Assembly (NCBI RefSeq): GCF_000010625.1
Contig: NC_010296.1
Location: 4,440,001 to 4,472,000 of the forward strand
Length of the DNA stretch: 32,000 nucleotides
Origin: Microcystis aeruginosa NIES-843
GTDB lineage: Bacteria; Cyanobacteriota; Cyanobacteriia; Cyanobacteriales; Microcystaceae
Reading direction: 5' to 3'
How positions within the stretch are numbered: position 1 is the stretch's first letter; every line of letters begins with the position of its first letter. Below are positions 3,657 to 26,431 of the stretch, piece after piece. Both the position numbers and the translations under genes were made by a program. The notes under the pieces are model-generated. The model had not been told where the DNA came from. It made no database searches and saw nothing but the letters and a program-made list of their open reading frames with translations.

Positions 3657-3885
3657 CCCCTATTGGGTGTAGGCAGGTAAGTCTTGACTCATTTGGTTTA
3701 AGTTGCTGGCAATGGCTTTCATCGTCATAAAAGCCGAGCTAAAGGCGATTAGCTCATTTAAGGGATAACTTCGACTCTCAACCCGCAAGCTCAGTAACTG
3801 CTTCTCAAGAGATTCAATTTCTTCGATGAGCAATCCTAACTTTGGTGGGTTGAGAATTACCTGGGCAGCGATCGCAGCTTGTTGT

Positions 3886-3914
3886 GCGGTCTCGCGTAGC
3901 GAGCGCGTTGCGAC
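3886..3914. repeat. REP-like hairpin repeat (single unit)
   Basis: GCGGTCTCGCGTAGCGAGCGCGTTGCGAC contains the palindrome CTCGC-GTA-GCGAG. The same unit occurs twice in tandem at 22159-22201. Confidence 0.5.
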
Positions 3915-4023
3915 CGCTGGTAATTCATTTGGTTGCTAAAACTGTGAAAATTTGTTCGAGACCGGCAATCTTAACCGAGGCTCGCTCGACCCCGTGTCGG
4001 TTGAATGACAGTGACCACTGCAC

Positions 4024-4205
4024 CTACTATCTAACAAAAATAGCATTTTCTGAATTAGAAATTATTTGTCTTGCTGACTTACTCAGAGTTTTATTATTAT
4101 CTAACCACCAAAGCAAAATATGAGTATCTAGTAAATATTTTAAAATTACTCTCTTTCAAAACTGTTAATAATATCATCGGGTAAAACATCAAAATCATCA
4201 GCCAT
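4024..4205 (-). pseudogene. Degenerate vapB/vapC-like toxin-antitoxin remnant
   Basis: The minus strand carries a 19-aa ORF, MADDFDVLPDDIINSFERE* (4146-4205), which resembles an antitoxin C-terminal tail. It is followed by ...KYLLDTHILLWWLDNNKTLSKSARQIISNSENAIFVR**, which resembles a PIN/VapC N-terminus of ~35 aa. That stretch has no proper start codon and ends in two stops at 4024-4029. Confidence 0.4.
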
Positions 4206-4314
4206 TTTTAGCTACTAATAATTAAGGTTCTAATATCGATAACGGTAGCAGTCATAATTTAATAATTCCCTGGTTTATTATGTAAATTATAGACTATCTG
4301 TCATCACCAATCAG

Positions 4315-4362
4315 TCAATCATCAAGGGGACTTCTCACACCTCTGCCACCTCTGGCTAAAAC
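4315..4362 (-). pseudogene. intI: Displaced 3' tail of the integron integrase gene
   Basis: The minus strand reads (V L A) R G G R G V R S P L D D *. This continues ...MIYTHVLA from 5950-5958 once the IS and one copy of its 9-bp duplication are removed. The RGGRGVRSPLD tail is typical of IntI C-termini. Confidence 0.75.
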
Positions 4363-5949
4363 CTATCCATTAGTCGGATCTTTCTTAACAAAAAGAGAAG
4401 AAACTTAAAAAAAGGGGAAACGATTGATAGGTATAGTTTTGAAAGAAGGAATTAAGGTGGAGGTAAGCAAAAAAATGGAGAAATGGGCAGCCCAAGAATT
4501 ACAGTATGCAGACCTAGGGGACACCAGAAGAAAGAAAAGGTTAATCAGTATCGTGGAAAACTTGGCCAGTCAACCTAGTACAAGTGTGCCACAAGCTTCA
4601 GGAAATCTAGCCGCAGCGAGTGCCACCTACGACTTTTGGAATTCCCCCTATTTTCACCCCTCAGATATAATTGCCGCCCAGGCCAAAAGTACAGTAGAAA
4701 GAATCAAAGAACATCCAATAGTTTTGGCAGTGCAAGACACAACAAGTTTAGACTTTACGACGCAAAAAGCCAAAAAAGGCATGGGTTATCTAGATTATAA
4801 AAAATCCTTTGGTCTCAAAGTTCATACCACCTTAGGAGTGTCCCCAGTCGGAATACCTTTAGGACTGATTAATCAATATGTCTGGGCAAGAGAAGAAAAG
4901 AATTTAGGGATTGCCAAGCAACGCAAAAAAAGAGAAACCCAAGAAAAAGAAAGTCAAAGATGGTTAGATTCTTTGTCAGAAACACAACAACAGATACCCG
5001 AAGATATTCAAGTAGTAACAATCGGAGATTGTGAGGCAGACATATTTGATTTATTTGCCCAATCAAGAAGTCCTAACTCTCATTTATTAATTCGAGGAAC
5101 TCATAACCGAAAAGTTAACTATCTCGAAGACAAGCAAAGGTCAGGGCATTCAGAGCCTAAATATTTACATCAATCCATCAGAGAAATAAAAGCCTGTGGG
5201 ACCTTAGATGTGCAAGTAAAACGCAATCCTAATCACGAGGCTAGACTAGCTAAACTAACAGTTAGATTTGCCAGTTTTGAAATACAAGTACCTAGCCATC
5301 ACTCCAAGGCGACCCCTCGTCAACCGGTCAAATTACAGGTAATTTTAGCTGAAGAAGAAAATCCGCATAGCGGAGTTAATCCTATCAGTTGGCTGCTCTT
5401 AACTAGCCTAGACATTAGTAGCTTTGAATCAGCGATAACCTGTGTGCGCTGGTATAGTTATCGCTGGTTAATAGAACGCTATCATTTTGTTTTAAAAAGT
5501 GGTTGTGGATTAGAAAAACTGCAATTAGAAACGGGTAGGAGAATTGAGATGGCCTTAGCTACCTATTCAATTGTAGCTTGGAGATTACTTTGGTTAACCT
5601 ATCAAGCACGCTTACACGGAGAGGAGAGTTGTGAAAGTTTTTTGGAAGAACATGAATGGCAATCTTTGTGTGCCACTATTCATAAAAAGAGTCCGCCACC
5701 TGAAAAGCCGCCCTCCTTTCGAGAAGCGGTCAGAATGATTGCTTCTCTTGGGGGGTTTTTAGGTAGAAAAGGTGACGGTGAACCTGGTGTTAAAACTATT
5801 TGGTTGGGACTGCGAAGGTTACATGATATCAGCCAGACTTGGAAACTATCTCATCAAATTAGTCCCCCTATAGAACCCCCTTGAGCCATCTGGCACACTT
5901 TTCTCTTTTTGTCAAATTTTATGTTAAGAAAGATGTGACTAATGGATAG
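4363..5949 (+). mobile_element. IS4-family insertion sequence (1587 bp)
   Basis: Imperfect terminal inverted repeats CTATCCATTAGTCGGATCTTTCTTAACA / CTATCCATTAGTCACATCTTTCTTAACA (reverse complement). A perfect 9-bp target duplication GGCTAAAAC lies at 4354-4362 and 5950-5958. The element encloses one transposase ORF. Confidence 0.85.
4475..5884 (+). CDS. IS4-family (Tn5/IS50-like) DDE transposase
   Basis: The N-terminal part [23 protein letters not shown]... looks like a Tn5-type DNA-binding region. VQDTTSLDF and [11 protein letters not shown] are acidic motifs, and [17 protein letters not shown] matches the Y-(2)-R-(3)-E-(6)-K signature. The ORF is open from TTG 4424, but ATG 4475 follows AAGGTGGAGG. 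Confidence 0.85.
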
Positions 5950-6878
5950 GGCTAAAACGTGGGTATAAATCATCGTCGTCCTCACGTCTTTATGGCCTAA
6001 CAATTCTTGAACGGTGCGAATATCATAGCCATTTTGCAGTAAATGGGTAGCGAAACTATGGCGAAAGGTATGGCAACTGACTCGCTTAGGCACGCCGGAT
6101 TGCTGAACGGCTTGTTTGAGAGCTTTTTGGATGGTGCTTTCGTGGAGATGATGGCGGCGAGTTTCACTGGAACGCGGGTCTTGGGATAGGGTGTAGGACG
6201 GAAAAATATATTGCCAAATCCATTCACGGTCAGCTGTTGGATATTTTTGCGCCAGGGCGTAGGGCAAATAAACAGAACCGTAACCTCTTTCCAAGTCTTG
6301 TCGATGTAGGCGTTGTACAGTTTGGAGATGTTCTTTGAGAGAGGTTTGAAGGCGTTGGGGTAGGGGGGTTACGCGGTCTTCCTTGCCTTTGGTATCGCGG
6401 ATAATCAGTTGATTTTGGGCAAAATCTACATCCTTGACTCGCAAATTGAGGGCTTCAGCCAATCTCAACCCGCTACCATAAAGCAGTTGAACGATAAGAT
6501 GCTCTACGCCACTGAGGTGCTTCATGACATTTTGCACTTCTTCTTTGGTGAGGACGGTGGGCAGGCGTTTGTGACCTTTTGCCCGTAAATATGCACCGAT
6601 ATTTTCCAGTTCAATTTTAAGAACTTCTCGATAAAGGAAAAGGATGGCGTTGAGGGCTTGGTTTTGGGTGGCGGCGGCAACGTTTTTATCAACGGCAAGA
6701 TGGGTCAAAAAGGCTCTAATTTCTTCACCCCCCATTTCACGGGGATGTTTTTTCTGATGGAAGAGCAGATAACGCTTAATCCAGTCCAGATATGTTTGTT
6801 CGGTGCGGTAGGAGTAGTGTTTGAGGCGAATGTTTCACGCACTACGTCTAGGAGTTTTCGGGGTGGGGGAGGGTTCAT
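5950..6878 (-). pseudogene. intI: Integron integrase, main body (frameshifted and IS-interrupted)
   Basis: Tyrosine-recombinase motifs are present: [51 protein letters not shown]. The IntI-specific extra segment [44 protein letters not shown] is also present. The N-terminus [16 protein letters not shown] (start 6878) is in a different frame from [42 protein letters not shown] 1-nt shift near 6830-6838 separates them. Confidence 0.85.
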
Positions 6879-6911
6879 AGCAGAGTATACTAATCGGCAT
6901 AACACGCTTAT

Positions 6912-7034
6912 CGTAATATTATACGGAAAACTTCTCACGATCACTCCATTTGAGCGTAATATACGGAAAGATTCTTTAAAAAGTGCGTATTTAGCGTAAT
7001 ATACGGAAAATTTCCGCATAATATATAGTTAGAC
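6912..7034 (+). promoter_or_regulatory. attI-like recombinase-binding repeat array with GTTRRRY core
   Basis: Three direct repeats: CGTAATATTATACGGAAAA (6912-6930), GCGTAATATACGGAAAG (6954-6970) and GCGTAATATACGGAAAA (6994-7010). The third forms a palindrome with TTTCCGCATAATATATAG (CGGAAA-A-TTTCCG). GTTAGAC follows at 7028-7034 and matches GTTRRRY. The array lies 34-156 bp upstream of the divergent intI start. Confidence 0.5.
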
Positions 7035-7181
7035 TGCAATAGACCTCTTGCATAATTTTTTTATGGTATAATATAAGGTTTTGCTTTTTTCTCAATTCTT
7101 AGATTGAAGTGGAAAAAAGAATAAAATGTGATCTTAGGTCAGGAAATCATCTATAATTTTGCTATGTTTATTAGCAAAATT

Positions 7182-8021
7182 ATGGATTATCAAAACTTAT
7201 CAGATGAACAATTCAAACGCCGTTTCGGTGTGTATAAACAAACCTATAGAAAGATGGTAGAATCAGTAAAAAGTGTTGAAGCCGACTCTAATTCACCATC
7301 TAAAAGGGGACCGAAACCTAAACTATCTATAGAAGAACAAGTTTTAGTAACGTTAGAATATTGGCGAGAATATAGAACATATTTTCACATTGGTACAAGC
7401 TGGGAACTATCAGAATCAACTATATGTCGGATTGTAAATAAGACGGAAAAAATGCTTTTACAATCGGGAAACTTCCGTTTAAAAGGAAAAAAAGCTTTAC
7501 TCAATCAAGCAGAGATACCGGTCATAACGGTAATGGATGTAACGGAAACTCCCATTGAACGCCCCCAAAAGAAACAGAAAGATTTTTTGGGGGGTAAAAG
7601 AGGTTATCATACTTTAAAATCCCAATTAGTAGCTGATCAAAATACAAAGGAAATTATCTGTGTCTTTTGTGGGAAAGGTAGAGGTCATGATTTTAGTTTA
7701 TTTAAAAAAAGTCGAGTTCGTTTTCATCCTTTAACTACCAGCATAGAAGACAGTGGTTATCAGGGAATAGCTGCATACCATAGTAATAGTTATACACCGA
7801 AAAAGAAATCGAAAAATAGAAAATTAACAGAGTTAGAAAAAGAGTATAACAAGGCTTTAGCCAAAGAAAGGATTATCATTGAACCTATAAATAGGAAACT
7901 CAAAATCTTTAAAATCTTATCCTGTAAATATCGGAATCGTCGTCGAAGATATAGTTTAAGAGTTAACTTGTTGGCGGCTATTTATAACTGTGAGTTAGGG
8001 ATAGGTATAGCAGCTTCTTAA
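7182..8021 (+). CDS. IS5/Harbinger-type (DDE_Tnp_4-like) transposase
   Basis: An HTH-like N-terminus (RGPKPKLSIEEQVLVTLEYWREYRTYFHIGTSWELSESTICRIV) is followed by acidic motifs VMDVTETPIERP, HDFSLFK and IEDSGYQGI, then ERIIIEPINRKLKIFKIL. The ORF is open from GTG 7128. ATG 7182 (MDYQNLSDEQFKRRFG) looks like the native start. I could not define the element ends. Confidence 0.65.
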   Translation: MDYQNLSDEQFKRRFGVYKQTYRKMVESVKSVEADSNSPSKRGPKPKLSIEEQVLVTLEYWREYRTYFHIGTSWELSESTICRIVNKTEKMLLQSGNFRLKGKKALLNQAEIPVITVMDVTETPIERPQKKQKDFLGGKRGYHTLKSQLVADQNTKEIICVFCGKGRGHDFSLFKKSRVRFHPLTTSIEDSGYQGIAAYHSNSYTPKKKSKNRKLTELEKEYNKALAKERIIIEPINRKLKIFKILSCKYRNRRRRYSLRVNLLAAIYNCELGIGIAAS

Positions 8022-8282
8022 AAGTTGCCTAAAGATTAATCAAGTCAAGGAGAATTTATTCTCAATTTTTATAATTGAGATAGTTTGTGCCGCTTAAATA
8101 AAGAGGTTTTGATAACCAAATTAAAGCAGCTCTAAAGAGTTTTGAGTTAAAAGTTAAACTTCAAGTTTTCATTCAGGACAAATGTACTGATTAACTAATT
8201 TTTTGGGGAAAATTAGTTAACCCATCATTATAACATATAATTAATTTGCAAGAGTTCTAATATCGTGAGGTGTAGATGAGAC

Positions 8283-9452
8283 ATGAAATCCATATTAAAT
8301 TTAGGAATAACAACAACTATCGCTGCAAACTCAATTCTATTTGCGACCTCTTCATTTTCTACTGAAGCTTTCTCATTGCCGCACAAGTCTATCCTTCTAG
8401 CTCAGTCAAGCAACACCATTAGCTTTAGAAATGCCTGTTCATCTCCTTTCCGACTAGCTATTCACTTTAAAAACCTTTCAGGACAGTGGGAGACAAAAGC
8501 TTGGTATTCTTTTTCACCTGGCGAACAATCACGCCTCAATGGAGTAGATACCAGAAACAGATATCTCTTTTACTATGCAGAGGCAACTGATGGTTCTGGC
8601 AAGGTGTGGTCAAGCAACGACACAAGCCAAACAATCGGGGGAAGAACTTATAATATGAAGAAATTTGATATAGGTTCTCAAGTTGTTAATTGGACTCAAA
8701 CCCTGACCTGTCCAGATCAGCAACTCATTTCAGCACTAAAAAGAATTCCTTCAAAATATCAGCCCCTACCTACAGAAGATTATGTTACGTTTCGTTATAA
8801 TCCGAATTCTTTAGAAATTGGAGTACGCATAGGCCCGGCTGTTCTCCGTAATGAGATTGAAAAAATTCCTGAACAGAGGCTTAAGTATACTGACTACAAT
8901 CGCCATACAGTTAAGTGGTTTAAATATAAGGGAATTGATGTTTCTAGAAGACAAATTCTAATTGGTTTTAGATATAGGTATCAGAAATTAGAAGATCGAC
9001 CTCTAATTGGTGGGCGTTTCACAGTATATGATAATGCTGCCAATGTCGATGTGGGAGTCAACCTTGAGGTAAAGAATAAGCAGCTAGATGGGAATGTTAA
9101 TGTTCGCAATGTAGAAGCTGACTGGGCAAGTGGAGTTCTAGGTTTAGTTCAGAACACATATGAAATTATGTTTGGTAGCTTGACTTTTTTAGTTGACGGA
9201 AAGTTTATCAGACCCTCTGATTTCGCAGCAGCAGTGGCACCTTGGGTAATAAATGCATCGACTACAGACCAAAGAAACCTTAGTCGCTTCTTCGGTGACT
9301 TAAATGACTTAAACAGTAAAGGAGTCATTTACCTTAAGCGAATTGACTATGATTCTCAAGGTGTATGGTATCAATTTTCAATAGACGAATCGCTCTTAGC
9401 CCAATCAGCTTCGAGGCTTGAATCAATGTTAAATAGCTGGGCAAATCGCTAA
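8283..9452 (+). CDS. Secreted protein with a DUF1036-like N-terminal domain and an uncharacterised C-terminal half
   Basis: Signal-like N-terminus (MKSILNLGITTTIAANSILFATSSFS). Residues ~45-145 (ISFRNACSSPFRLAIHFKNLSGQWETKAWYSFSPGEQSRL...YLFYYAEATDGSGKVWSS) follow the pattern I recall for DUF1036. I do not recognise the remaining ~240 aa. Confidence 0.5.
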   Translation: MKSILNLGITTTIAANSILFATSSFSTEAFSLPHKSILLAQSSNTISFRNACSSPFRLAIHFKNLSGQWETKAWYSFSPGEQSRLNGVDTRNRYLFYYAEATDGSGKVWSSNDTSQTIGGRTYNMKKFDIGSQVVNWTQTLTCPDQQLISALKRIPSKYQPLPTEDYVTFRYNPNSLEIGVRIGPAVLRNEIEKIPEQRLKYTDYNRHTVKWFKYKGIDVSRRQILIGFRYRYQKLEDRPLIGGRFTVYDNAANVDVGVNLEVKNKQLDGNVNVRNVEADWASGVLGLVQNTYEIMFGSLTFLVDGKFIRPSDFAAAVAPWVINASTTDQRNLSRFFGDLNDLNSKGVIYLKRIDYDSQGVWYQFSIDESLLAQSASRLESMLNSWANR

Positions 9453-9586
9453 GATGTCTAACAAATCGATGAAGCGGACGGGCAAGTTATGTTAATAGAG
9501 TTATCGAAGTTATCTGCCGCCGCTTATCTTGGTCGTTAGGTCGTTTCCAGCTTTGATGATAAACGTCATTAGAAGGAGTAAACGTT

Positions 9587-9832
9587 ATGAATACTTTGAT
9601 ATCGGGGGAATCTGATATGGGTACTGCTCGCTATAGTGATTTGGAAGTTGTCTCAGTCAAGAATCATTTTAGAGAAGACCTTTTCGATACTTACAATCCT
9701 AGTCGGCTATACTGTGGCTTAGGAAAATGCTATGGAAACAATGGGTGGTGTGGTTGCGGACACTTTCAAGAACAACCCGGTAATACGTGGTGGTGTAAGT
9801 GCGGACATCATTATAATGAGCACGGCTCCTGA
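9587..9832 (+). CDS. Small Cys/Trp/His-rich protein with a duplicated W-C-x-C-G-H motif
   Basis: 81-aa ORF preceded by GAAGGAG 9 nt upstream. The C-terminal half is CGLGKCYGNNGWCGCGHFQEQPGNTWWCKCGHHYNEHGS. No signal peptide is apparent and I recognise no family. Confidence 0.5.
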   Translation: MNTLISGESDMGTARYSDLEVVSVKNHFREDLFDTYNPSRLYCGLGKCYGNNGWCGCGHFQEQPGNTWWCKCGHHYNEHGS

Positions 9833-9960
9833 CCGTGAACGCTGTAAGGCGCAATAACGGTACTCCGCGTATTGCACCGAATGGATAAAAAGAGCAAAAT
9901 CCATAATCCCCGGTTTGTCTCCCTGCCCACCCGCCTAATATATAGTTAGGCAGATGCTAG

Positions 9961-11139
9961 GGGAGCATCCCAGTTTTGCAATGAGTAAAAATACTCAGGC
10001 AATATCGCCGTTGAGATAAGCACAACGTAGCTTCAAATACTGAGGAACATTCTCTGCTTTCCATTGTGCTCCCACAATTTTCATTCTTGCACCTATTTGC
10101 TTAATCTTTGACTCTACACTTCCAGAACCGATGCAAATCCCTTGTGATTGATAGAGTTCGTAATTGGGTATTCTTTCTCGATGTTTATCGACATATTTGG
10201 TGAAATTTATAGCCTGTTTCTTTTTGCATCCCTCTAATTCCTCTAAAACTCTTTTCACCTCTCCTTTCCATAAATTCTCTTTGATTCTATTCAGACGCTT
10301 GTTTGACCCGCCTATTTTCTTCATATTCTCTACTAAATGATACCAATCCAATATTTCTCTCCTTTTAACACCGATTTTCTCCATCAGATTCCACACCCCA
10401 TCATGACCATCTCCTAAACAGGTGACTACCTCTGTTAAGGGCTGACGGTTCACCCATTCCAGTAATTCTTCATTTTGCTGAAAAAATCCCGCACATTCTT
10501 GACCATGCAGACTTACTGCTTTGTAATCTCGACCTTGACTCGGTTGTCCTTTGGGCGTTCTGATTCTGACTTTTCCGACCTCTACACTCAATGCTTCTAC
10601 CGGACTCTTTGCTTCTGCTTCCTCAAATTTATATCTTTGTACAAGCCTCTGTTGACTACTGCCTGAAACTGCCATTCCTGTCGCCATTTTGATAGCTTTT
10701 TCCGCATCTTCAAAAGAGACTTTAGCCACTGCTCCTAAGCAACATTTCTCCAGCATGGGACTTAATCGATTATTCTTGCTTAATCCTAGTTTATCGGCTT
10801 GTTTCTCGCTTATCTTGACTTTCCCTATGATACTGCTTACGCTTTTGGTTCGCCCTGCTTGGGTTCCTGTTGCTGATTCAAAAAAAAATTGCCTATGGCA
10901 GGACCCAATGTAGTCAGCCAATGGTCTCGCAGGGCGGTTTCAATGCCCTCAAAGCTACGTAGTTGTTCTTCTGGGGTATTATCGACTAGAATTTGAGCAA
11001 TGGCTTTTAAATGTTGATCTAGTTGTTCTTTTTGGTCTGTATTCATGATTCTACCGTTTAATTGTTTCTCTTTATTTTGCCTTAGCTAACGTTTTTAGTC
11101 TCTAAGCATTTATACTTATGGCAAAATTGGGATGCTCCC
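9961..11139 (-). mobile_element. DDE insertion sequence, copy 1 (ISKra4-like family, assigned from memory)
   Basis: Terminal inverted repeats are GGGAGCATCCCAGTTTTGCAATGAGTA at 9961 and its imperfect complement ending GGGATGCTCCC at 11139. It belongs to the same family as 11410-12677 and 16882-18077. No target duplication is visible. Confidence 0.7.
9995..11046 (-). CDS. Transposase orfA/orfB joined by a -1 frameshift
   Basis: orfA (10837-11046) and orfB (9995-~10890) overlap at a T9 run (minus strand GGC AAT TTT TTT TTG). A -1 slip joins ...LGPAIGNFF to FESATGTQAGRTKSV... orfB carries CLGDGHDGVWN and ILDWYHLVEN acidic motifs. Confidence 0.7.
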
Positions 11140-11409: not shown

Positions 11410-12677
11410 GGGAGCATCTCACCTTTGCATTAAGCATTTATGCTTAATGAGGTAAATAAAAAAGTTAAAAAAGAGAACCATTCAGATAGGCACAGCGATG
11501 ACGAAGGACTTGCGGTACATTGCCAGAATTCCAACTTGCACCGGCAATTTTAACACGAAAACTAATTTGTTTCACCTGAGATTCCACAGAGCCAGAACCA
11601 ATGGAAATCCCCTCTTCTTGAAAATAACCATAATTGACAATTCGATGTTTATGCTTGTTCAAATAAATAATAAAATTCTCCACTTGCGGCTCTGACCATC
11701 CCTCAAAACAGGAGATAGCAGCATCCACTTCCCCCTTCCATAGAAAACATTTTACCTCATCAATCCGCTGGAATGACCCGCCAACTTTATAGAGGTTTTC
11801 GATTAAATGATACCAATCCAATATTTCAATTCTTTCCTGTTTCTCTCCTATCTGACCAAATAAATTCCAGATACCATCATGTCCATCTCCTAAACAAATT
11901 AAAGGTTTAGCCAAAACTTGAGAATTAACCAAATCTAATAAAGCTGAGTTATCTTGAAAAAAAGCCGCTACCCCCAGTTGATGAAAACTCACTGCTTTAT
12001 AATCACGCCAAATTAAGGCTTTTCCCTTGGCAGTTCTTAGTCGTACCTTACCGCCATCTAGGCTCATTTCTTCCACTTCCACTTCCACTTCTGGGTTAGA
12101 CGGTAATTCTTCAAAAGCATAGCGATGTACGAGGCGTTGTTGGGTACTGTGAGAAACAGCAATCCCTGTCAATGATTTGATTTTCTGCGCCGATTTCTCG
12201 TAGGATTCATCGCCACTTAATAGCAAACAGTTCTTCTCTAACATTGGACTCATCTGAGTCCGAGACTTTATTTCTAATTTTTTCGCTTGTTTTTCTGTAA
12301 TTGGTAATTCCCCCAAAATACTTTTCACTTTTCTCGTCCGACCGGCAGTTTCTTCTGTGCTTGTTTTGACAAAAAAATACCGATTTCTGGGTTAACATAA
12401 TGAATCATTAAATCTCTGACTGTCTCCTCTATCTCTCCCAAGTTATTAAATTTCTTAATTTGGGATTGCTCATAGAGACATTGCCCTAACTCTTGACATA
12501 ACTCTTTAATTCTTTTTTCATTTTCTGATAACATGGAATTATTACTCCCATCGAGAGCTATTCTGAATTGTAAGTTATAACTATTATAATCTCATTTCTC
12601 TTTGTGATCAAGTTCAGGATTTTCTAGTTTTTGACTGCTATAAGCATTAATACTCATTGCATAAGTGAGATGCTCCC
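11410..12677 (-). mobile_element. DDE insertion sequence, copy 2 (same family)
   Basis: Inverted repeats are GGGAGCATCTCACCTTTGCATTAAGCA at 11410 and the complement ending GAGATGCTCCC at 12677. No target duplication is visible. Confidence 0.7.
11465..12534 (-). CDS. Transposase orfA/orfB joined by a -1 frameshift
   Basis: orfA is 12325-12534 and orfB is 11465-~12370. They overlap at the minus-strand sequence GGT ATT TTT TTG (heptamer T TTT TTG). A -1 slip gives ...EIGIFF-VKTSTEETAGRTRKVKS..., colinear with copy 3. Confidence 0.7.
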
Positions 12678-13645: not shown

Positions 13646-14296
13646 TTGAATGACATAAGTTTGACGATAAACGAGGGAGAGTTCGTTCTTTTACTAGGAC
13701 TGAATAGTTCGGGGAAAACTACTGCCCTCAACATAATAACAGGAGTCTATACTCCCTCTGAAGGTCAGGTAGAGCTTTTTGGCAATCAGCTATCAGATAA
13801 TCTAATCCCAAGGGAAATTAAAGAACGCATGGGAATAGTTTTCTCAAAGGTGGAATTACCTGAACAACTTACTGTAGAAGAAATTATCAGTCTTTTTCAG
13901 AGCTATTACTCCAATCCCTTCGGGATAGATGAAGCAATTAAGCTATTCGAGCTTAAAAATTGGCGCAAAACTCTTCTAAAAAATCAGCAAGAACTTAGTC
14001 AAGGCAGGAACAAGAGGCTTCTGATTGCTCTAGCTTTATCTGGCAACCCCGATCTATTACTTTTTGATGAGCCAACCGCTAATTTAGACCCACCAGGAAG
14101 AAGACTATTTTGGCAACTCATGAGAGATTTATCAAGTCAGGGTAAAACTATCCTAATTTGTATGCCAGAGGAGAATTCTGCTCAAACTGAACAAACAACG
14201 TCAACAATTGAAGATCTGTCACGTGCCAGAGAACTGGCGACTAGAATTGGGTTCTTCGGTTTGTGTTATGCAATGGACGGGAGTTATAAGGGATGA
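13646..14296 (+). CDS. ABC transporter ATP-binding part (likely a pseudogene fragment)
   Basis: Walker A GLNSSGKTT, signature-like LSQGRNKR and Walker B LLLFDEPTANLD are present. The true 5' end appears to be ATG 13562 (MSVINL), followed by an in-frame TAG at 13580 and then NVSKFFRVEKSEECPDGIRQALNDISL. The last 15 codons (GFFGLCYAMDGSYKG*) are MITE sequence. Confidence 0.7.
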   Translation: MNDISLTINEGEFVLLLGLNSSGKTTALNIITGVYTPSEGQVELFGNQLSDNLIPREIKERMGIVFSKVELPEQLTVEEIISLFQSYYSNPFGIDEAIKLFELKNWRKTLLKNQQELSQGRNKRLLIALALSGNPDLLLFDEPTANLDPPGRRLFWQLMRDLSSQGKTILICMPEENSAQTEQTTSTIEDLSRARELATRIGFFGLCYAMDGSYKG

Positions 14297-14437
14297 AACC
14301 ATTATATAGAAAGACATTGCTTCGATTTTTGCCAATTGTTTTCAATCTAGAACGAGCTAATCAATTAAGTCTCTTGCCAGATAAGGATTTAGCCGATTTA
14401 TGCCCCCTGATCGAACCATACCAAGTAACGAAGAACC
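14250..14437 (-). mobile_element. MITE family B, copy 1 (reverse orientation)
   Basis: 188 bp with terminal inverted repeats GGTTCTTCG...CGAAGAACC. A perfect 8-bp target duplication TAGAATTG lies at 14242-14249 and 14438-14445. It belongs to the same family as 21245-21431 and 23471-23656. Confidence 0.85.
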
Positions 14438-15368
14438 TAGAATTGTAGAATTCAATAATGGCGAAATAGTGAGTGATACTGTCATTTCATCAATTACTAA
14501 TCAAGTAGATAGTTTAAGAGAAGTGAATGTATCTCCCCCAAATAAATCATTTGAGATCCTTAAAGAGCAAGTTCGAGTTGAGTTTCTTCAGTTGTGGCGC
14601 AAGCCAATGGTGCTGGTTTTTAGTCTGCTGCTGCCTCTATTTATCGTATATATATATAGTAATATGGTCGACAAACAGCTAATTTACCAGCAGTTAATTG
14701 CCTATGCGATTTTAGGTCTATTAATCATTTCTATACAAACTTTTGGAACAAAAGTGGCTGAAGAAAAAACCAAGGGTTGGATGAAATTATTGCAAGTCAC
14801 GCCTCTTCCTCCACCAATATATATAGTGGCTAAAATTATAGTTGCTATATTTATTTCAGGGCTTTGCCTTGCCTTACTCTTCTCCTTTTTTGCCGTAACT
14901 TTAGACTTTGACCAACCCTTTTTGACCTGGCTATTTGTTTTCTGTATTTTGATAGTCGGCATGATTCCTTTGAATGCAATGATGCTTGCTTTGGGATACT
15001 GGATTGATAAAGATATTTTCGGTTATTTCACTCTGCCGATTATGATAGTGTGGATTGTATCGGGACTGATTTTACCAATAAAAATCTTACCTAAAACTGT
15101 ACAAAATTTACTTCCTTACCTGCCCATACCTACCTACCACTATGCTCAAATCGCTCTTTGGGCAGGAGGAATACCCAGTGAAAAAGTTCATATTTGGCTA
15201 GATTGGCAATGGCTAATCTGGGCTACAGTTGTCTTTGGAATGCTAGCAGCCTGGGGATATCAGCGCAGCCAAATCGATCAGAAACTAACCTGGTTTAGTT
15301 TATTAGAGCAAATCAAAAAGAAATTGAGTAAGTTTAGCTTATTAGAGCGATTATTTGCTCGCTTTTAA
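14400..15368 (+). CDS. ABC-2-type permease part (originally fused in frame to the ATPase)
   Basis: About six hydrophobic segments follow residue 70. The first 13 codons (MPPDRTIPSNEEP) are MITE sequence. The native sequence resumes at 14446 with (I)VEFNNGEIVSD, which is the normal C-terminal strand of an ABC ATPase. Confidence 0.65.
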   Translation: MPPDRTIPSNEEPRIVEFNNGEIVSDTVISSITNQVDSLREVNVSPPNKSFEILKEQVRVEFLQLWRKPMVLVFSLLLPLFIVYIYSNMVDKQLIYQQLIAYAILGLLIISIQTFGTKVAEEKTKGWMKLLQVTPLPPPIYIVAKIIVAIFISGLCLALLFSFFAVTLDFDQPFLTWLFVFCILIVGMIPLNAMMLALGYWIDKDIFGYFTLPIMIVWIVSGLILPIKILPKTVQNLLPYLPIPTYHYAQIALWAGGIPSEKVHIWLDWQWLIWATVVFGMLAAWGYQRSQIDQKLTWFSLLEQIKKKLSKFSLLERLFARF

Positions 15369-15583: not shown

Positions 15584-15697
15584 AGAGTTTAAAGATCGCC
15601 GATCTTGTAGGCTGGGTTGACGCTCAGGAAACCCAACACCCTCGGAAACAAGAGTAAATCTGGTAGGATAGGGATTGGAGAGATTTTCTAGATTTCT

Positions 15698-16171
15698 GTG
15701 AGCGAAACCGTCTATATTGAAACCAGTATCTTAGGCTACCTTACCGCTCGACCGAGCAGAGATATTATTGTGGCGGCTAATATTGAAATAACGAGAGAGT
15801 GGTGGAATACACGCCGCGGTGACTTCCAACTCTACTCCTCACAAGCGGTTGTAAAAGAAACCTCACAAGGCGATGTCGCGATCGCGTCTCAACGACTAGA
15901 AATTCTCGGTAATCTATCTTTACTCGACTTGAATCAAAATGTACTCGATTTAGCAGAGCGATTTTTGGAACGTAGCAACCTTCCAACAAAAGCTGATGTT
16001 GATGCTGTTCATATCGCGGTCGCGACTGTTCACGGCATGGATTATCTGCTGACATGGAATTGCAAGCACATTGCCAATGCTCAAATACAGGGAAAATTGG
16101 CGGAGATTAGCCTTGATCTTGGATATCAGTTACCGATTCTTTGTACACCTTATGAACTTCTAGGAGGTTGA
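15698..16171 (+). CDS. PIN-like domain protein (putative toxin)
   Basis: 157 aa with a GTG start. VYIETSILGYL, DAVHIAVATVHGMDYLLTWNCKHIAN and the overall length fit a PIN-like fold. The usual first Asp is Glu here. The next ORF is translationally coupled to it. Confidence 0.55.
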   Translation: MSETVYIETSILGYLTARPSRDIIVAANIEITREWWNTRRGDFQLYSSQAVVKETSQGDVAIASQRLEILGNLSLLDLNQNVLDLAERFLERSNLPTKADVDAVHIAVATVHGMDYLLTWNCKHIANAQIQGKLAEISLDLGYQLPILCTPYELLGG

Positions 16172-16173
16172 TT

Positions 16174-16401
16174 ATGTTTCAAGATGAAATTGTCGAAGAG
16201 ATTCACAGAATTCGTGAAGAGTATTCTCGGTCATTCAATCATGACTTGAAAGCCATCTTTGCTGACTTACAAAAGCAACAAGAGGAAGGCGGCAGAGAAG
16301 TTGTAAACTTGTCTCGAAAACACGGTCTAACAACACGTTGGAGCGGACAGAGAAAAGAGGTTGGTGACGATGCAACAGAAATTAGCCGCCGCTCAACTTA
16401 G
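16174..16401 (+). CDS. Small partner protein of the PIN-like gene (putative antitoxin)
   Basis: ATG 16174 lies 7 nt after TAGGAGG and right after the upstream stop (16169-16171). The sequence starts MFQDEIVEEIHRIREEYSRSFNHDLKAIFADLQKQQEEGGREVVNL. The last ~28 codons lie in a dispersed repeat (GGTCTAACAACACGTTGGAGCGG...). Confidence 0.5.
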   Translation: MFQDEIVEEIHRIREEYSRSFNHDLKAIFADLQKQQEEGGREVVNLSRKHGLTTRWSGQRKEVGDDATEISRRST

Positions 16402-16547
16402 CCGTTAGGCGGGATTACATCAAAGGAAATAATCATGAACAGATTTCATAAATTATTGATAACTACAACTATCATGACTTCTTAGCCGTTAGGCGGGATT
16501 ACATCAAAGGAAATAATCATGAACAGATTTCATAAATTATTGATAAC
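16397..16547 (+). repeat. 84-bp tandem duplication covering the RBS, start codon and first 15 codons of a small gene
   Basis: CTTAGCCGTTAGGCGGGATTACATCAAAGGAAATAATCATGAACAGATTTCATAAATTATTGATAACTACAACTATCATGACTT occurs at 16397-16480 and again from 16481. The second copy is interrupted by the MITE at 16548 and resumes at 16765. Confidence 0.85.
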
Positions 16548-16764
16548 TAGGGCTTGCTGAATAAATCTAAAAACTTTGTTGGATAAGGCTTTTAGACTTT
16601 TTTTCCCTCAAAAAGTGCCTACCATTGGAGTGATCGGGGGTAAAATTCCTGGACTTTTTCCCTGAAAATTAGGTAACTGACTACCTCAAAATCGGTAAAA
16701 CCCTACACCCTACACCCCACACCCCACACCCTGCCCCCACGAAAAACTTTTTCAGCAGACCCTA
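16548..16764 (+). mobile_element. MITE family A, copy 2
   Basis: TAGGGCTTGCTGAATAAATC ... (CCCTACACCC/CACACC)n ... TTTTTCAGCAGACCCTA. It is nearly colinear with 27721-27943. Short direct duplications flank it (AACTA). Confidence 0.8.
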
Positions 16765-18077: not shown

Positions 18078-18411
18078 GCCTACTCCAGTGGTTGGTCGGC
18101 AGGTTTTAATGGAGGTACACACAACAATACATCAGAAAATGAACGCAGTCGTAACTGCTATGATTGGGGTTATACGGATGGTAAAATCGAAAAATCTAAA
18201 CTGGATATGCAAAGAATGCGTAATGAATCGTATATATATCGGATGTGCCTCAGTACTCGAATTTTAGATCCTAGCATTCAGTGTCAGCAACCTCGTTTTT
18301 AGTGCGATCGCTGATCGCCGTAGGCTGGGTTGACGGCAGGAAACCCAGCATTGCTTTTCTCTATCAACACTAACCAAAAGCACGATCCCACCCAAAACAC
18401 ATCGACCCTTA

Positions 18412-19015: not shown

Positions 19016-19102
19016 GGCTTAAACTTCTAGATATGCGAGAATAAATTGATCATAAGCGATCTGTGAGGTACGGTCTAACAATCCCGTTGCACACCGACCG
19101 TA

Positions 19103-19204
19103 TCAGGTTGGTCGGTGCTGAGTAACAAGAACCACATCATGTCCAGCATCAATTAGAAATCTCGCAGTGATTGCGTAAACGTCTTGATCGAGAAGAAATT
19201 TCAT
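19103..19204 (-). pseudogene. Truncated DUF5615/PIN-like toxin (N-terminal 33 codons only)
   Basis: MKFLLDQDVYAITARFLIDAGHDVVLVTQHRPT* starts 3 nt after the DUF433-like stop. The sequence after codon ~29 is replaced by a dispersed repeat (…CCGACCAACCTGATACGGTCGGTGTGCAACGGGATTGTTAGACC). Confidence 0.5.
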
Positions 19205-19440: not shown

Positions 19441-19534
19441 CTAGTCGTAAGATGCCCTTATTTTAGATCACATTGCACAAAAACAGCCGTATAACAAGTC
19501 GCTGCACCAGAACGCCGTCACTTGGTTGGTTGAG

Positions 19535-19700
19535 TGCGATGCCGAAGGCACTGCGTAGCAGCACGCCGATCTTGTAGGGTGCGTTAATGAAATGTAACGG
19601 TGCGATTCGTTTCTAGGGGAATAAATAGCCTAGAGTAGCCTGTAGGTTGAACTTCGGCCGTGAGCCTTTGCCGAACGGTTGACGCAAGGAAACCCAACCA
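19535..19700 (+). repeat. Composite dispersed repeat upstream of hicBA
   Basis: GAGTGCGATGCCGAAGGCACTGCGTAGCAGCACGCCGATCTTGTAGGGTGCGTTAATGAA ... CCTGTAGGTTGAAC...GACGCAAGGAAACCCAAC. The same modules recur at 20211-20375. Partial copies occur at 2664-2695 (reverse), 15597-15640 and 18316-18352. Confidence 0.7.
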
Positions 19701-19998: not shown

Positions 19999-20211
19999 AT
20001 GCCTAGAATTCCTGGCGTAAATCACCTAGATGCAGTACGAGCCTTGGAGAAGGTAGGCTTTCGGATCATTCGCCAAGGCAAACATATCATCATGAGTGAT
20101 GGGGTGCGTCAAGTTGCTCTTCCAAGGCACAATCCAATTAAGGCATTTACAATGGGTGGAATTGTTCAAGATGCTGGTTTGACAGTCGCAGAATTTCGTC
20201 AACTATTATGA
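19999..20211 (+). CDS. hicA: HicA-family mRNA interferase toxin
   Basis: 70 aa. AVRALEKVGFRIIRQGKHIIMSDGVRQVALPRHNPIKAFTMGGIVQDAGLTVAEFRQLL shows the YcfA/HicA pattern, including the conserved G-x-H. Confidence 0.8.
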   Translation: MPRIPGVNHLDAVRALEKVGFRIIRQGKHIIMSDGVRQVALPRHNPIKAFTMGGIVQDAGLTVAEFRQLL

Positions 20212-20375
20212 GTGCGATGCCAAAGGCACTGCGTAGCAGATCGCCTCGCCCGTAGGTTGGATTGACGCAAGGAAACCCAACATCAATCAACTCATAACAG
20301 AGTGCGATGCCGAAGGCACTGCGTAGCAGCACGCCGATCTTGTAGGGTGCGTTAACGAAGTGAACGCACCTTATC
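20211..20375 (+). repeat. Composite dispersed repeat downstream of hicBA
   Basis: GAGTGCGATGCCAAAGGCACTGCGTAGCAG...CGTAGGTTGGATTGACGCAAGGAAACCCAAC... is followed by a second GAGTGCGATGCCGAAGGCACTGCGTAGCAGCACGCCGATCTTGTAGGGTGCGTTAACGAA. The orientation matches 19535-19700. Confidence 0.7.
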
Positions 20376-20670: not shown

Positions 20671-21244
20671 TCAAGGACAATAATATAGTTTAAGAGTCAT
20701 AATTAGAAGCAAAGCACTCATTAAAAACATGATTAACCTAGAATTCACGGAAGAAGAAAAGAACTCACTGTCTTAGGAAAGATTTCATCATCCCCATCCC
20801 CGGGTTCAACTGAAGATGGAAGTTCTCTGGTTAAAGAGCCAAAAGATACCGCACAAAAAAATTTGTCAGTTAGCAGGAATCTCGCCAAATACCTTATTAA
20901 CCTATCTTCGAGATTATGAAGAAGGCGGAATAGAAAAATTAAAAGAAATCAACTTCTATCGCCCTAAAAGTGAATTAGAGTCTCAAAAAGAAACGCTCAA
21001 AAAATACTTCGATAAAAATCCACCAGCCACAATAAATGAAGCTGTATATAGGATAGAAGAATTGACGGGAATAAAACGAAGTCCTACCCAAGTGAGAAAA
21101 TTTTTAAAATCAATGGGAATGAAATGTTTAAAAGTAGGTTCTCTTCCTTCTAAAGCTGACCGGGATGAACAAGAGGAATACAAAGAAAAAAAGCTAGAAC
21201 CCAGACTAAATGAGGCTAAAGAAGGAAAAAGGGCTGTTTTTTTT

Positions 21245-21431
21245 GGTTCTTCGTTACTTGGTATGGTTCGATAGGGTGGCATAAATCGACTAAATCCTTA
21301 TCTGGCAAAAGATTTAATTGATTAGTTCGCTCTAGATCAAAAACAATTGACAAAAATCGCTAAATGCCTTTCTCTATAAGGGTTCCATCCCTTATAACCC
21401 TCGTCCATTGCATAACACAAACCGAAGAGCC
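21245..21431 (+). mobile_element. MITE family B, copy 2
   Basis: GGTTCTTCGTTACTTGGTATGGTTCG...CAAACCGAAGAGCC, 187 bp. It is flanked by an 8-bp duplication TTTTTTTT (21237-21244 and 21432-21439). Confidence 0.8.
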
Positions 21432-21508
21432 TTTTTTTTGTTGATGCCGCTCACTTCGTCATGGGAGCATTTCTCGGTTTTGTTTGGTGTTTTGAGAGAC
21501 TTTTTGTT

Positions 21509-21599
21509 AATACCAAATTTCTAAATCCATGACAGACATCCACGCTCGAATGCTTGCCAAGCCTGTATTCGTTGTGACGCGAATAAAGAAAAATGGTAT
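21509..21599. mobile_element. 91-nt miniature insertion with short inverted ends
   Basis: It interrupts ...CFERLFV|KSPSGRK... of the transposase and shifts the frame by +1. Its ends are ATACCAAATTT ... AAAAATGGTAT, which are imperfect inverted repeats. Confidence 0.45.
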
Positions 21600-22064
21600 A
21601 AGTCACCGAGCGGGCGTAAACGCTTCAATGTTTTAGGAGCATTAAATGCAATAACTCATGAAGTTATTCTGGTTACGAATGACACTTATATTACAGCAAC
21701 TCAAGTCTGTGAACTCCGGTCAAAAATAGCTGCTTTAGGACTAATGATTCCCATCACTCTCGTATTAGATAATGCCCGCTATCAGAAATGTAAAATTGTT
21801 AAAAAATTGGCTCTTTCTTTGTCAATAGAGCTACTCTATCTACCGTCTTATTCGCCTAATCTAAATTTAATTGAAAGGCTGTGGAAATTTGTCAAAAAGA
21901 AATGTTTATATGGTAAATATTATGAAAACTTTTCTGACTTTTCTTCAGCCATTTATGAATGTCTGAATGATGCCAATCTGAAACATAAAAAAGAACTGTA
22001 TTCCTTGCTGACTCTCCGATTTCAGAAGTTTAATAAATCTCAGATTATGAACGTCTAAAGTATA

Positions 22065-22360
22065 GTCTCCCTTTGATTCTTTTAATTATTGTGGTCGGGG
22101 AATAACTAGGGTCTGATTCCAAAAATAAATGAATATGATCTGGCATTATTTCTAATGCGTTCTCGCGTAGCGAGCGCGTTCTCGCGTAGCGAGCGCGTTG
22201 CGACCAACCTCCAGTTATTTTCTTTGCACAGGTCAAAAATAATCGACTGCGCTCTTAACTTAATGTCCCCTTTTAATACCGCTTTTCTCCGTTTTGGACA
22301 CCAGACAAAGTGATAGTTAAGTAGTGTTACCGAATGAGGATTTCTTCTATAATCTTCCAT
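22065..22360 (-). pseudogene. tnpA: IS200/IS605-family Y1 (HUH) transposase TnpA, truncated and frameshifted
   Basis: MEDYRRNPHSVTLLNYHFVWCPKRRKAVLKGDIKLRAQSIIFDLCKENNWRLV is followed by a 43-nt repeat insertion, then ALEIMPDHIHLFLESDPSYSPTTIIKRIKG. The HUH motif (HIH) is present. The C-terminal third, which holds the catalytic Tyr, is missing where the IS630-like element begins. Confidence 0.75.
22159..22201. repeat. REP-like hairpin repeat, two tandem units, inserted in tnpA
   Basis: GTTCTCGCGTAGCGAGCGC GTTCTCGCGTAGCGAGCGC GTTGC. Each unit holds the palindrome CTCGC-GTA-GCGAG. The 43 nt break the tnpA frame between ...NNWRLV and ALEIMPDH... Confidence 0.7.
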
Positions 22361-22417
22361 CTACCCTTGACAAATAGTGTATTTCCAACATATCCTATAT
22401 ACAGGAGGTAAGTCAAG

Positions 22418-25516: not shown

Positions 25517-25600
25517 GCAATGAGGAAATCCAGTCAAACAGAAACAAGGTTTTATCCTTTTGTGTTCGGTTAACTGTAGTCTTGTTGAGAATTAGAGAAC

Positions 25601-26318: not shown

Positions 26319-26431
26319 TTGGTAAACTCCTATACTGCATCCGGTTGGATATAATTTTATCTTAAGTCTAGGCTTTAAGAAAATTTTCTTTCAGGAGCGG
26401 TTAACTGTAGTCTTGTTGAGAATTAGAAAGA

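What the first reader, a model, noticed from the sequence alone, without database searches (positions are those of the whole stretch)
4315..6878. Integron-type integrase killed twice: a 1-nt frameshift plus an IS4-family insertion with a 9-bp duplication
The minus-strand gene has all tyrosine-recombinase boxes. It also has the extra segment between patches II and III that distinguishes IntI from XerC/D-type recombinases ([23 protein letters not shown]...[15 protein letters not shown]). Its first 16 codons are in a different frame from the rest. An IS (4363-5949, duplication GGCTAAAAC) sits after the catalytic-Tyr box. Removing the IS and one duplication copy rejoins ...MIYTHVLA to RGGRGVRSPLDD* exactly. 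An integron platform in a cyanobacterial chromosome would mark the plus-strand genes beyond 7034 as possible cassettes.
Basis: partly seen in the sequence, partly recalled or inferred. Interest (0 to 1): 0.7.

Follow-up and report, generated by a model that had tools for sequence, protein, structure and literature searches.

The report
Broken integron integrase in Microcystis chromosome
This is a genuine gene-capture element (an integron) in a Microcystis-type cyanobacterial chromosome whose recombinase gene was very recently disabled by a jumping gene and a one-base loss, which is a correct but fairly ordinary finding because such decayed integrons are well known.

Summary

- **Integrase.** With the IS removed and one base restored, the minus-strand gene at 4315-6878 gives a 322-aa protein. 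It scores 471.5 bits on the integron-integrase model TIGR02249 (cut-off 265) and aligns end to end with Vibrio IntI4 (2A3V).
- **IS insertion.** A 1587-bp IS4-family element (4363-5949) sits after codon 310, flanked by the 9-bp duplication GGCTAAAAC. Two related genomes carry the empty site.
- **Frameshift.** One base is missing at 6831/6832. A metagenome contig (L095) has the same intI allele intact, identical at every other aligned position (1084 columns).
- **Integron.** There is an attI core (GCATAATATATAG|TTAGAC, 7016-7034). There are two canonical attC sites (9456-9541 and 16325-16410) and one attC remnant (from 19073). L095 lacks the first cassette, with a junction that is exactly the attI x attC product.
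- **Third hit.** An IS5-family element (about 7041-8258) lies about 12 bp past the crossover.

Cyanobacterial integrons and decayed intI genes are already documented, and Microcystis orthologues are already named "integron integrase". This is therefore a new member of a known kind. The frameshift could still be an assembly error.

The parts
4315..4362 (-). 3' fragment of intI, cut off by the IS. It encodes ...(L)ARGGRGVRSPLDD plus the stop codon (4315-4317). Its last 9 bp (4354-4362, GGCTAAAAC) are copy 1 of the target-site duplication.
   Evidence: The tail RGGxGVxSPLD is conserved in 80 IntI relatives and in VchIntIA.
4363..5949 (+). IS4-family (Tn5/IS50-like) insertion sequence, 1587 bp, with terminal inverted repeats CTATCCATTAGTC... 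The transposase ORF is 4424-5884 (486 aa from the TTG start) and appears intact.
   Evidence: NF033590, 481.8 bits; Tnp_DNA_bind, Dimer_Tnp_Tn5, DDE_Tnp_1. Empty sites are in L003 and L017.
5950..5958 (.). Copy 2 of the 9-bp target-site duplication GGCTAAAAC.
   Evidence: The 9-mer is single-copy in L003, L017 and L095.
5950..6878 (-). Main body of the integron-integrase pseudogene (codons 1-310; ATG at 6876-6878). One base is missing between 6831 and 6832 (codon 16, ACC to AC), which puts codons 1-15 out of frame with the rest.
6879..7034 (+). attI region. It holds three direct repeats TA(A/T)TATACGGAAA at 6917-6929, 6957-6969 and 6997-7009, spaced 40 bp apart. The core site GCATAATATATAG|TTAGAC is at 7016-7034, with the crossover between G7028 and T7029.
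   Evidence: Eight platforms with different first cassettes diverge right after GTTA/GTTAG. The motif TAATNNNTAGTTAG also lies upstream of intI in Chloroflexota and Acidobacteriota relatives.
7041..8258 (+). IS5-family insertion sequence inside cassette 1, about 12 bp past the attI crossover. Inverted repeats are AGA(C/A)CTCTTGCA, the duplication is 3-4 bp (AAT/AATA), and the transposase ORF is 7128-8021.
   Evidence: The element is absent at this position in L008-L012.
7029..9535 (+). Cassette 1, 1286 bp without the IS5. Its ORF (8283-9452) encodes a 389-aa protein of unknown function with a hydrophobic N-terminus that looks like a signal peptide (by eye, not tested). Its attC site is 9456-9541: R'' GTCTAAC, R' GTTAGGT.
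   Evidence: L095 lacks the cassette precisely, with junction ATATATAG|TTAGGTCGTTTCC. The window, L008 and L013 diverge right after the GTTA of R'.
9536..9951 (+). Second unit, carrying an 81-aa ORF (9587-9832). It ends not in an attC but in a second attI-type core, GCCTAATATATAG|TTAGGC (9933-9951).
16325..16410 (+). attC site 2, closing a unit with a PIN-domain ORF (15698-16171) and an overlapping 77-aa ORF (16168-16401).
   Evidence: 85.3 bits. An 87%-identical unit with its own attC is in L017, and the two diverge after GTTA.
19073..19120 (+). attC remnant. R'' GTCTAAC, L'' and L' are present. The 3' end including R' is lost, joined to downstream DNA at a GCTGAG microhomology.

Best explanation
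The window carries a sedentary chromosomal integron of a Microcystis-type cyanobacterium, sitting next to a universal-stress-protein gene at a locus shared by many strains.

Its integrase gene, which would catalyse cassette insertion and excision between attI and attC sites at the G|TT crossover, is non-functional here. An IS4-family element transposed into codon 310/311, just after the catalytic tyrosine, making a 9-bp duplication and replacing the conserved C-terminal tail. One base is also missing in codon 16, which separates the start codon from the rest of the reading frame. A third mobile element, of the IS5 family, landed about 12 bp past the attI crossover, between the platform and the first cassette gene.

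The lesions are very recent, because an intact allele with no other nucleotide difference exists in nature. The cassette array is real and was recently active, and it is now frozen unless an integrase is supplied in trans.

Shown: the identity of the integrase, the IS with its empty sites, the missing base, the attI and attC sites, and the cassette presence/absence polymorphism at exact crossover points. Inferred: loss of activity, the unknown order of events, and the polar effect of the IS5.
For: - Integrase identity: TIGR02249 471.5 bits against a cut-off of 265, and far above the XerC/XerD models. There is a full-length alignment to IntI4 (2A3V), E 3.9e-94, that includes the IntI-specific segment.
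- IS4: inverted repeats, 9-bp duplication, in-frame rejoining and empty sites.
- Missing base: seen against six orthologues, including the otherwise identical L095.
- C-terminal tail: G312 in 77, V316 in 78, S318 and P319 in 79, L320 and D321 in 76 of 80 relatives.
- attC model: 18 base pairs, 9 of them with changes on both sides, 94% of cells paired, and 0 of 500 shuffles reach the covariation score.
- attC hits: two in the window at 87 and 85 bits. All 36 hits in related loci lie in the orientation expected relative to intI.
- attI x attC1 junction in L095.
- attI crossover defined by eight different first cassettes.
- Orthologues are publicly named integron integrase in Microcystis.
Against: - The frameshift rests on one base in one assembly. 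That allele was not found in JGI metagenome contigs, so a sequencing error is possible.
- The IS leaves all catalytic residues intact, so inactivation by the IS alone is inferred from conservation and not shown.
- The attC hairpins are not thermodynamically exceptional (z -1.2 to -1.4).
- Only two complete attC sites are present in about 12 kb, so much of the DNA between them cannot be assigned to cassettes.
- No promoter signal above chance was found for Pc or PintI.
Confidence: 0.9

Rival explanations
1. The gene was hit only once. The IS4 insertion is real, but the missing base at 6831/6832 is an assembly or sequencing error in a two-base homopolymer.
For: The window differs from the intact L095 allele at this single position in 1084 aligned columns. 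The exact frameshift allele was absent from the metagenome contig collection. The base lost belongs to a GG/CC dinucleotide.
Against: Elsewhere the window matches independent short-read assemblies almost perfectly: 100% over 1280 bp with L008-L013, and 99.97% over 2946 bp with L007. The assembly's error rate is therefore low. The IS4 junction was also absent from the same collection, so absence there says little. Independent frameshifts in the same N-terminal stretch occur in relatives, such as the +1 in NIES-4325, and 274-aa products are common in the protein clusters.
Confidence: 0.25
2. The integron is not dead. Either the IS-truncated enzyme keeps activity, or another intact intI elsewhere in the same genome serves this array in trans.
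For: All catalytic residues (R, K, H-x-x-R, H, Y) lie upstream of the insertion. One relative (L004) carries two platforms in tandem, one of them intact. Nemergut et al. report more than one intI in over one-fifth of integron-bearing lineages (PMC2426708).
Against: If the frameshift is real, the longest ORF starts at Met49 and lacks half of the N-terminal domain. The replaced tail is almost invariant across phyla. No second intI is present in the 32-kb window.
Confidence: 0.1
3. The gene is an ordinary XerC/D-type or phage-type tyrosine recombinase, and the neighbouring repeats are unrelated.
For: It shares the generic Phage_integrase and SAM-like domains. One orthologue is labelled XerD in a public record.
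Against: It scores 471.5 bits on the IntI model, against 158 and 147 on XerC and XerD, both far below their cut-offs. The IntI-specific insertion is aligned with 2A3V. attI and attC sites and a cassette polymorphism lie next to it.
Confidence: 0.01

Closest known systems
Xanthomonas sedentary chromosomal integrons (intI next to ilvD; Gillings et al. 2005, as summarised in PMC12444791)
   Same: The integron sits at one conserved chromosomal locus across the genus. intI is inactivated independently in different lineages by frameshifts, stops and large deletions, while a few strains keep a full-length gene. Cassette arrays differ between lineages.
   Different: The host is a cyanobacterium and the flanking gene is a Usp gene. 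Arrays are short, with 2-4 recognisable attC sites per locus in the loci examined here. In this window the lesions include an IS insertion and are so recent that an otherwise identical intact allele is still found.
Vibrio cholerae superintegron integrase VchIntIA / IntI4 (PDB 2A3V)
   Same: The two proteins align end to end (query residues 11-321; E 3.9e-94), including the IntI-specific segment and the C-terminal RG..GV.SPL tail. The attC sites share the R''-L''...L'-R' layout, with two unpaired positions in the 5' arm.
   Different: The Microcystis array is tiny compared with the large Vibrio arrays (more than 100 cassettes, from my own knowledge). Only about 4% of Vibrio intI genes are pseudogenes (PMC2426708), whereas this one is broken.
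Class 1 integron attI1 (simple site plus direct repeats DR1/DR2; from my own knowledge of the literature)
   Same: The core has two inversely oriented half-sites around a 7-nt spacer, with the crossover at G|TT. Direct repeats lie upstream, between the core and intI.
   Different: Here there are three repeats at an exact 40-bp spacing with an unrelated sequence (TATACGGAAA). Whether IntI or a regulator binds them is unknown. The protein is below the class 1 model cut-off (337 against 435 bits).
IS50/Tn5 group of the IS4 family
   Same: It has a DDE transposase with Tn5-type DNA-binding and dimerisation domains, short terminal inverted repeats and a 9-bp target duplication.
   Different: It is a cyanobacterial member. 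I could not compare it with ISfinder, so no IS name is assigned.

Membership tests
Integron | intI encodes a tyrosine recombinase with the IntI-specific additional segment | tested here: met
   TIGR02249 471.5 bits (cut-off 265), against XerC 158 and XerD 147. The segment is aligned with 2A3V.
Integron | attI site next to the intI start, with the crossover at G|TT | tested here: met
   Core GCATAATATATAG|TTAGAC lies at 7016-7034. Eight platforms with different first cassettes diverge after GTTA/GTTAG. The core motif is conserved upstream of intI in other phyla. Binding and recombination were not tested.
Integron | attC sites: imperfect inverted repeats R''-L''...L'-R' with unpaired bases, RYYYAAC...GTTRRRY, on the cassette strand | tested here: met
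   Sites at 9456-9541 and 16325-16410. Covariation in 8 sequences: 9 of 18 pairs change on both sides, and 0 of 500 shuffles reach the score. Invariant unpaired G and A sit in the 5' arm. Folding energy alone is not significant. IntegronFinder's own attC model was not available.
Integron | Cassettes are discrete units gained or lost at the crossover points | tested here: met
   L095 lacks cassette 1, with junction ATATATAG|TTAGGTCG.... The window, L008 and L013 carry different DNA after the same attC. L017 and the window differ after the PIN-unit attC.
Integron | Cassette promoter Pc in or near intI/attI | tested here: inconclusive
   One weak sigma-70-like match on the + strand (6894-6922, 9 of 12). 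The number of matches is not above the shuffled expectation.
Integron | Functional integrase | tested here: not met
   In this window the gene is interrupted by the IS4 and a frameshift. Intact 322-aa orthologues exist in L004, L015, L016, L018, L019 and L095. The locus is therefore an integron with a pseudogenised intI.
Sedentary chromosomal integron (as opposed to a mobile integron) | Same chromosomal location across strains of the taxon, not on a plasmid or transposon | tested here: met
   A Usp gene is followed by intI or its remnant in L001-L005, L008-L010, L095 and the window. The usual criterion of a large array (more than 19 attC; PMC4889954) is not met.
IS4 family insertion sequence | DDE transposase of the IS4 family, terminal inverted repeats, direct target duplication, and an empty site in relatives | tested here: met
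   NF033590 481.8 bits. Inverted repeats match at 26 of 28 positions, with a 9-bp duplication. Empty sites are in L003, L017 and L095.

The most novel reading that the evidence does not exclude
The 411-bp unit with the 81-aa ORF (9536-9946) may be a cassette that uses an attI-type site instead of an attC. It is bracketed by two copies of the attI core: GCATAATATATAG|TTAG at 7016 in the cassette-1-free state seen in L095, and GCCTAATATATAG|TTAGGC at 9933. That arrangement is what integration of a circle by attI x attI recombination would leave. If true, this IntI clade would capture genes without attC sites. The clade's attI core, TAATNNNTAGTTAG, is conserved from Cyanobacteria to Chloroflexota and Acidobacteriota.
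Probability: 0.15. Interest if true: 0.5.

Novelty: new member of a known kind. Interest (0 to 1): 0.3.

Why it matters
It shows that a bloom-forming, highly IS-ridden cyanobacterium carries a real integron that was active very recently. One near-isogenic pair differs by a precise cassette gain or loss. The integrase is being lost repeatedly and in different ways across the population: a two-part deletion, +1 and -1 frameshifts, and an IS. This mirrors Xanthomonas and fits the view that integrase activity is only intermittently favoured. Practically, it marks 7029 to about 19120 as cassette territory, containing genes of unknown function and toxin-antitoxin-like pairs. It also supplies an intact allele (L095) and defined attI and attC sites for anyone wishing to test a cyanobacterial integron experimentally. 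It does not change what is known about how integrons work.

Tried and rejected
- **Strict motif and energy scan for attC**. It found only the two real sites plus false pairs inside coding repeats at 25.7-27.1 kb and 31.0 kb. Those were rejected because they lack the L boxes and score 10 bits or less with the model.
- **Folding energy as evidence for attC**. The z-scores, -0.3 to -1.4, are not significant, so I relied on covariation and breakpoints instead.
- **Promoter scan**. Matches were not above chance.
- **Look-up of the chimeric 293-aa ORF**. It is not on record, so the source assembly could not be identified.
- **Metagenome scans for the frameshift allele and for the IS4/intI junction**. 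Both were empty, so neither lesion could be confirmed independently.
- **Supplementary tables of the IntegronFinder paper**. They are not held.
- **Literature search for a described Microcystis integron**. Nothing specific turned up.
- **The 80-nt TCTCAACCC...GGGTTGAGA inverted repeat near 3776-3855 as an attC.** It appeared in the scan of related loci. It was rejected because it lies on the wrong side of intI, inside a small ORF, without the attC layout.
- **The GTAGGYTGGGTTGACG...GAAACCCAAC repeats as cassette boundaries**. They are short hairpin repeats, not attC-like.
Full report
**1. Checking the observation**

The region was read directly and reconstructed by script.

- **IS insertion.** GGCTAAAAC occurs exactly twice in the window, at 4354-4362 and 5950-5958. 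The 1587 bp between the copies begin and end with the inverted repeat CTATCCATTAGTC(GG/AC)ATCTTTCTTAAC. Removing 4363-5958 joins ...[13 protein letters not shown] to RGGRGVRSPLDD-stop in one frame.
- **IS family.** The internal ORF (4424-5884, +) scores 481.8 bits on the IS4-family transposase model NF033590. It has the Tn5-type DNA-binding and dimerisation domains.
- **Empty sites.** L003 (HE973734.1) is 100% identical up to the insertion point. L017 (Microcystis aeruginosa NIES-4325) is the second case. Each has a single copy of the 9-mer and no IS.
- **Frameshift.** The N-terminal 15 codons ([15 protein letters not shown]) are in another frame. Aligning nine homologous copies shows that those carrying the window's sequence variant read GAAACCATT where the window reads GAAA-CATT.

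**2. What the gene is**

With the IS removed and the base restored, the 322-aa protein scores 471.5 bits on TIGR02249, the integron integrase model (cut-off 265). It scores 158 on XerC and 147 on XerD, both far below their cut-offs.

It aligns over residues 11-321 with the solved Vibrio cholerae integron integrase IntI4 (2A3V, E 3.9e-94).

A metagenome contig (L095) encodes exactly this protein, uninterrupted. At the DNA level the window and L095 are identical over 1084 aligned columns of intI and attI, apart from the single missing base between 6831 and 6832. Both lesions are therefore very young, or the frameshift is an assembly error.

**3. Whether the IS kills the gene**

The insertion lies after the catalytic tyrosine, so every catalytic residue is retained. 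Only the last 12 residues are replaced by 31 IS-encoded ones.

That tail is one of the most conserved parts of the family. Among 80 relatives from Cyanobacteria, Chloroflexota, Acidobacteriota and Proteobacteria the counts are G312 in 77, V316 in 78, S318 and P319 in 79, and L320 and D321 in 76. The Vibrio enzyme has the same tail. Loss of function is thus a strong inference and not a demonstration.

With the frameshift, the longest ORF starts at Met49.

**4. The integron around the gene**

*attI.* Between the intI start (6878) and 7034 lie three direct repeats TA(A/T)TATACGGAAA, spaced exactly 40 bp apart. They are followed by the core GCATAATATATAGTTAGAC.
- Eight platforms were compared: the window with L008, and L001, L004, L015, L016, L017, L019 and L095. 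All share this region and then diverge immediately after GTTA/GTTAG into unrelated first cassettes. This behaviour places the attI crossover between G7028 and T7029.
- The motif TAATNNNTAGTTAG also sits 100-250 bp upstream of intI in more distant relatives, including Roseiflexus, Anaerolineae and Pyrinomonadaceae contigs.

*attC sites.* After the first plus-strand gene (389 aa, 8283-9452) comes an 86-nt site: GTCTAAC-N5-GATGAAGCGGAC...GCCGCCGCTTATC-N6-GTTAGGT (9456-9541). A second site of the same design lies at 16325-16410.
- Six more such sites from related loci gave an alignment in which 9 of 18 proposed pairs change on both sides. In it, 94% of cells pair, and no shuffle out of 500 reaches the covariation score. 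An invariant unpaired G and an invariant unpaired A interrupt the 5' arm.
- A covariance model built from this alignment scores the two window sites at 87 and 85 bits, and nothing else above 16 bits.
- In related loci the model finds 36 sites, all on the strand expected from the orientation of intI, with 2-4 per array.
- A third, truncated site starts at 19073. It keeps R'', L'' and L' and lost its 3' end at a GCTGAG microhomology.
- Folding energies alone are unremarkable.

*Cassette mobility.*
- The window, L008 and L013 are identical through attC1 and diverge right after the GTTA of its R' box.
- L095 lacks cassette 1 altogether. Its junction reads ATATATAG|TTAGGTCGTTTCCAGC, which is the attI left half joined to the DNA that follows attC1 in the window. 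This is exactly the product of attI x attC recombination.
- The PIN-domain unit ending in attC2 recurs in NIES-4325 at 87% identity, with different DNA after GTTA.

**5. Further damage in this window**

- An IS5-family element (about 7041-8258; transposase 7128-8021; inverted repeats AGA(C/A)CTCTTGCA; 3-4 bp duplication) sits about 12 bp past the crossover. It is absent there in L008-L012.
- Two degenerate ISLre2-like (UPF0236) elements occupy 9961-11139 and 11410-12677.
- A MITE interrupts an 84-bp tandem duplication just after attC2.
- About 12 kb of array therefore contains only two complete attC sites.

**6. Population context**

- The locus is the same in many assemblies: a Usp gene, then intI or its remnant, then plus-strand genes.
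- Most strains carry a two-part deletion that removes window 3889-6539, except for about 22 bp that match 4190-4211. Only the N-terminal third of intI is left.
- NIES-4325 has an independent +1 frameshift in the same N-terminal stretch.
- L004, L015, L016, L018, L019 and L095 have intact 322-aa genes.
- Public records already name these proteins "integron integrase [Microcystis ...]".

**7. Comparison with what is known**

- Integrons in Cyanobacteria were reported by Boucher et al. 2007 (as cited in PMC2426708), Nemergut et al. 2008 (PMC2426708) and Cury et al. 2016 (PMC4889954).
- A Cyanobacteria-specific attC model exists (PMC8352920).
- Nearly one third of chromosomal intI genes are pseudogenes (PMC2426708).
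- The Xanthomonas integron is a close parallel. It has a fixed locus, lineage-specific inactivation by frameshifts, stops and deletions, and a few species with intact genes (PMC12444791).
- I found no paper describing the Microcystis integron itself.
- The finding is therefore a correct identification of a new member of a known kind.

**8. Open points**

- The frameshift allele and the IS4 junction were both absent from the metagenome contig collection. Neither lesion is independently confirmed. The IS is secure because of its duplication and empty sites. The frameshift needs reads.
- The role of the three 40-bp-spaced repeats is unknown.
- The 81-aa unit ends in a second copy of the attI core. 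The exact 14-mer TAATATATAGTTAG occurs only at 7019 and 9936 in the window, and the downstream copy travels with that unit in all 11 contigs carrying it. This would fit attI x attI capture, but no strain was seen in which the right-hand boundary varies.

Noticed in passing
window 9933-9951 (also L095 2978-2996 and 10 other contigs): A second attI-type core, GCCTAATATATAGTTAGGC, lies 411 bp downstream of the real attI crossover position, at the end of the 81-aa ORF unit. It shares an exact 14-mer with attI (7019-7032). It always accompanies that unit. It might mark attI x attI capture or a collapsed attC.
   Followed up: partly
window 6917-6929, 6957-6969, 6997-7009: Three direct repeats TA(A/T)TATACGGAAA sit at an exact 40-bp spacing between intI and the attI core. 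Position and sequence are conserved in Microcystis, Snowella and a contig that is 79% identical (L019). Each contains a small CGTA...TACG palindrome. They may be accessory integrase sites or an operator. Their function is unknown.
   Followed up: partly
L023 9749-9762, L029 4019-4032, L045 258-271, L068 123-136, L082 68-81: The attI core motif TAATNNNTAGTTAG lies just upstream of intI in Synechococcales, Roseiflexus, Anaerolineae and Pyrinomonadaceae contigs whose IntI is 59-66% identical. The attI core is therefore shared across phyla in this IntI clade.
   Followed up: partly
window 7041-8258: An IS5-family element with an intact 297-aa transposase is inserted about 12 bp past the attI crossover.
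   Followed up: yes
window 3889-6539 compared with L001, L002, L004 (first copy), L005, L008-L012: Most related strains carry the same two-part deletion, which leaves only about 22 bp (matching 4190-4211) between the Usp flank and the N-terminal third of intI. L004 and L017 also carry a second copy of the 3659-3888 segment several kb away. In L004 that copy sits beside a second, intact platform.
   Followed up: partly
window 16397-16564 and 16550-16759; second copy 27723-27937: An 84-bp tandem duplication starts inside the 3' end of attC2, so that CTTAGCCGTTAGGC occurs twice. The second copy is interrupted by a MITE of about 210 bp with terminal repeats GGGCTTGCTGAA/GGGTCTGCTGAA, a CCCCACA-type internal repeat and 6-bp duplications (TAACTA, TATATA).
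   Followed up: partly
window 9961-11139 and 11410-12677: Two degenerate ISLre2-like (UPF0236) elements with inverted repeats GGGAGCATC... have transposase frames broken into several ORFs. The same fragmentation is seen in an independent short-read contig (L007).
   Followed up: partly
window 14253-14444 (-), 21242-21431, 23471-23661; L001 18328-18520: A repeat of about 190 bp (probably a MITE) is present three times in the window. One copy lies between the ABC ATPase and permease genes. In L001 a copy is inserted after the last attC.
   Followed up: no
window 15605-15638, 18318-18351, 19679-19698, 20250-20283; 19532-19594, 20210-20272, 20300-20362: Families of short hairpin repeats (GTAGGYTGGGTTGACG..GGAAACCCARC and GAGTGCGATGCCGAAGGCACTGCGTAGCAG...) are scattered through the array region. 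They are not attC-like.
   Followed up: no
window 25567-27154: Four tandem copies of a 390-420-bp unit (90-97% alike over most of the unit), each carrying a 91-102-aa minus-strand ORF. It is a coiled-coil protein with a borderline XhlA match (34.4 bits against a 34.7 cut-off).
   Followed up: partly
window 20816-23500 and 27819-30648: More mobile DNA. It includes a split IS630-type transposase (HTH 20816-21274, DDE_3 21744-22058), an IS200 TnpA fragment (22106-22360) with an IS605 TnpB-like ORF (22418-23500), another TnpB-like ORF (27819-28922), and a group II intron reverse transcriptase/maturase with an HNH domain (28888-30648). The core gene mnmE/trmE is at 24143-25516.
   Followed up: partly
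L001 11723-15927: In strain CP097576.1 the first cassette after attI is a single 1357-aa DUF4011/AAA_11/AAA_12 helicase-like gene, followed by an attC (66.8 bits). This is an unusually large cassette, possibly defence-related.
   Followed up: no
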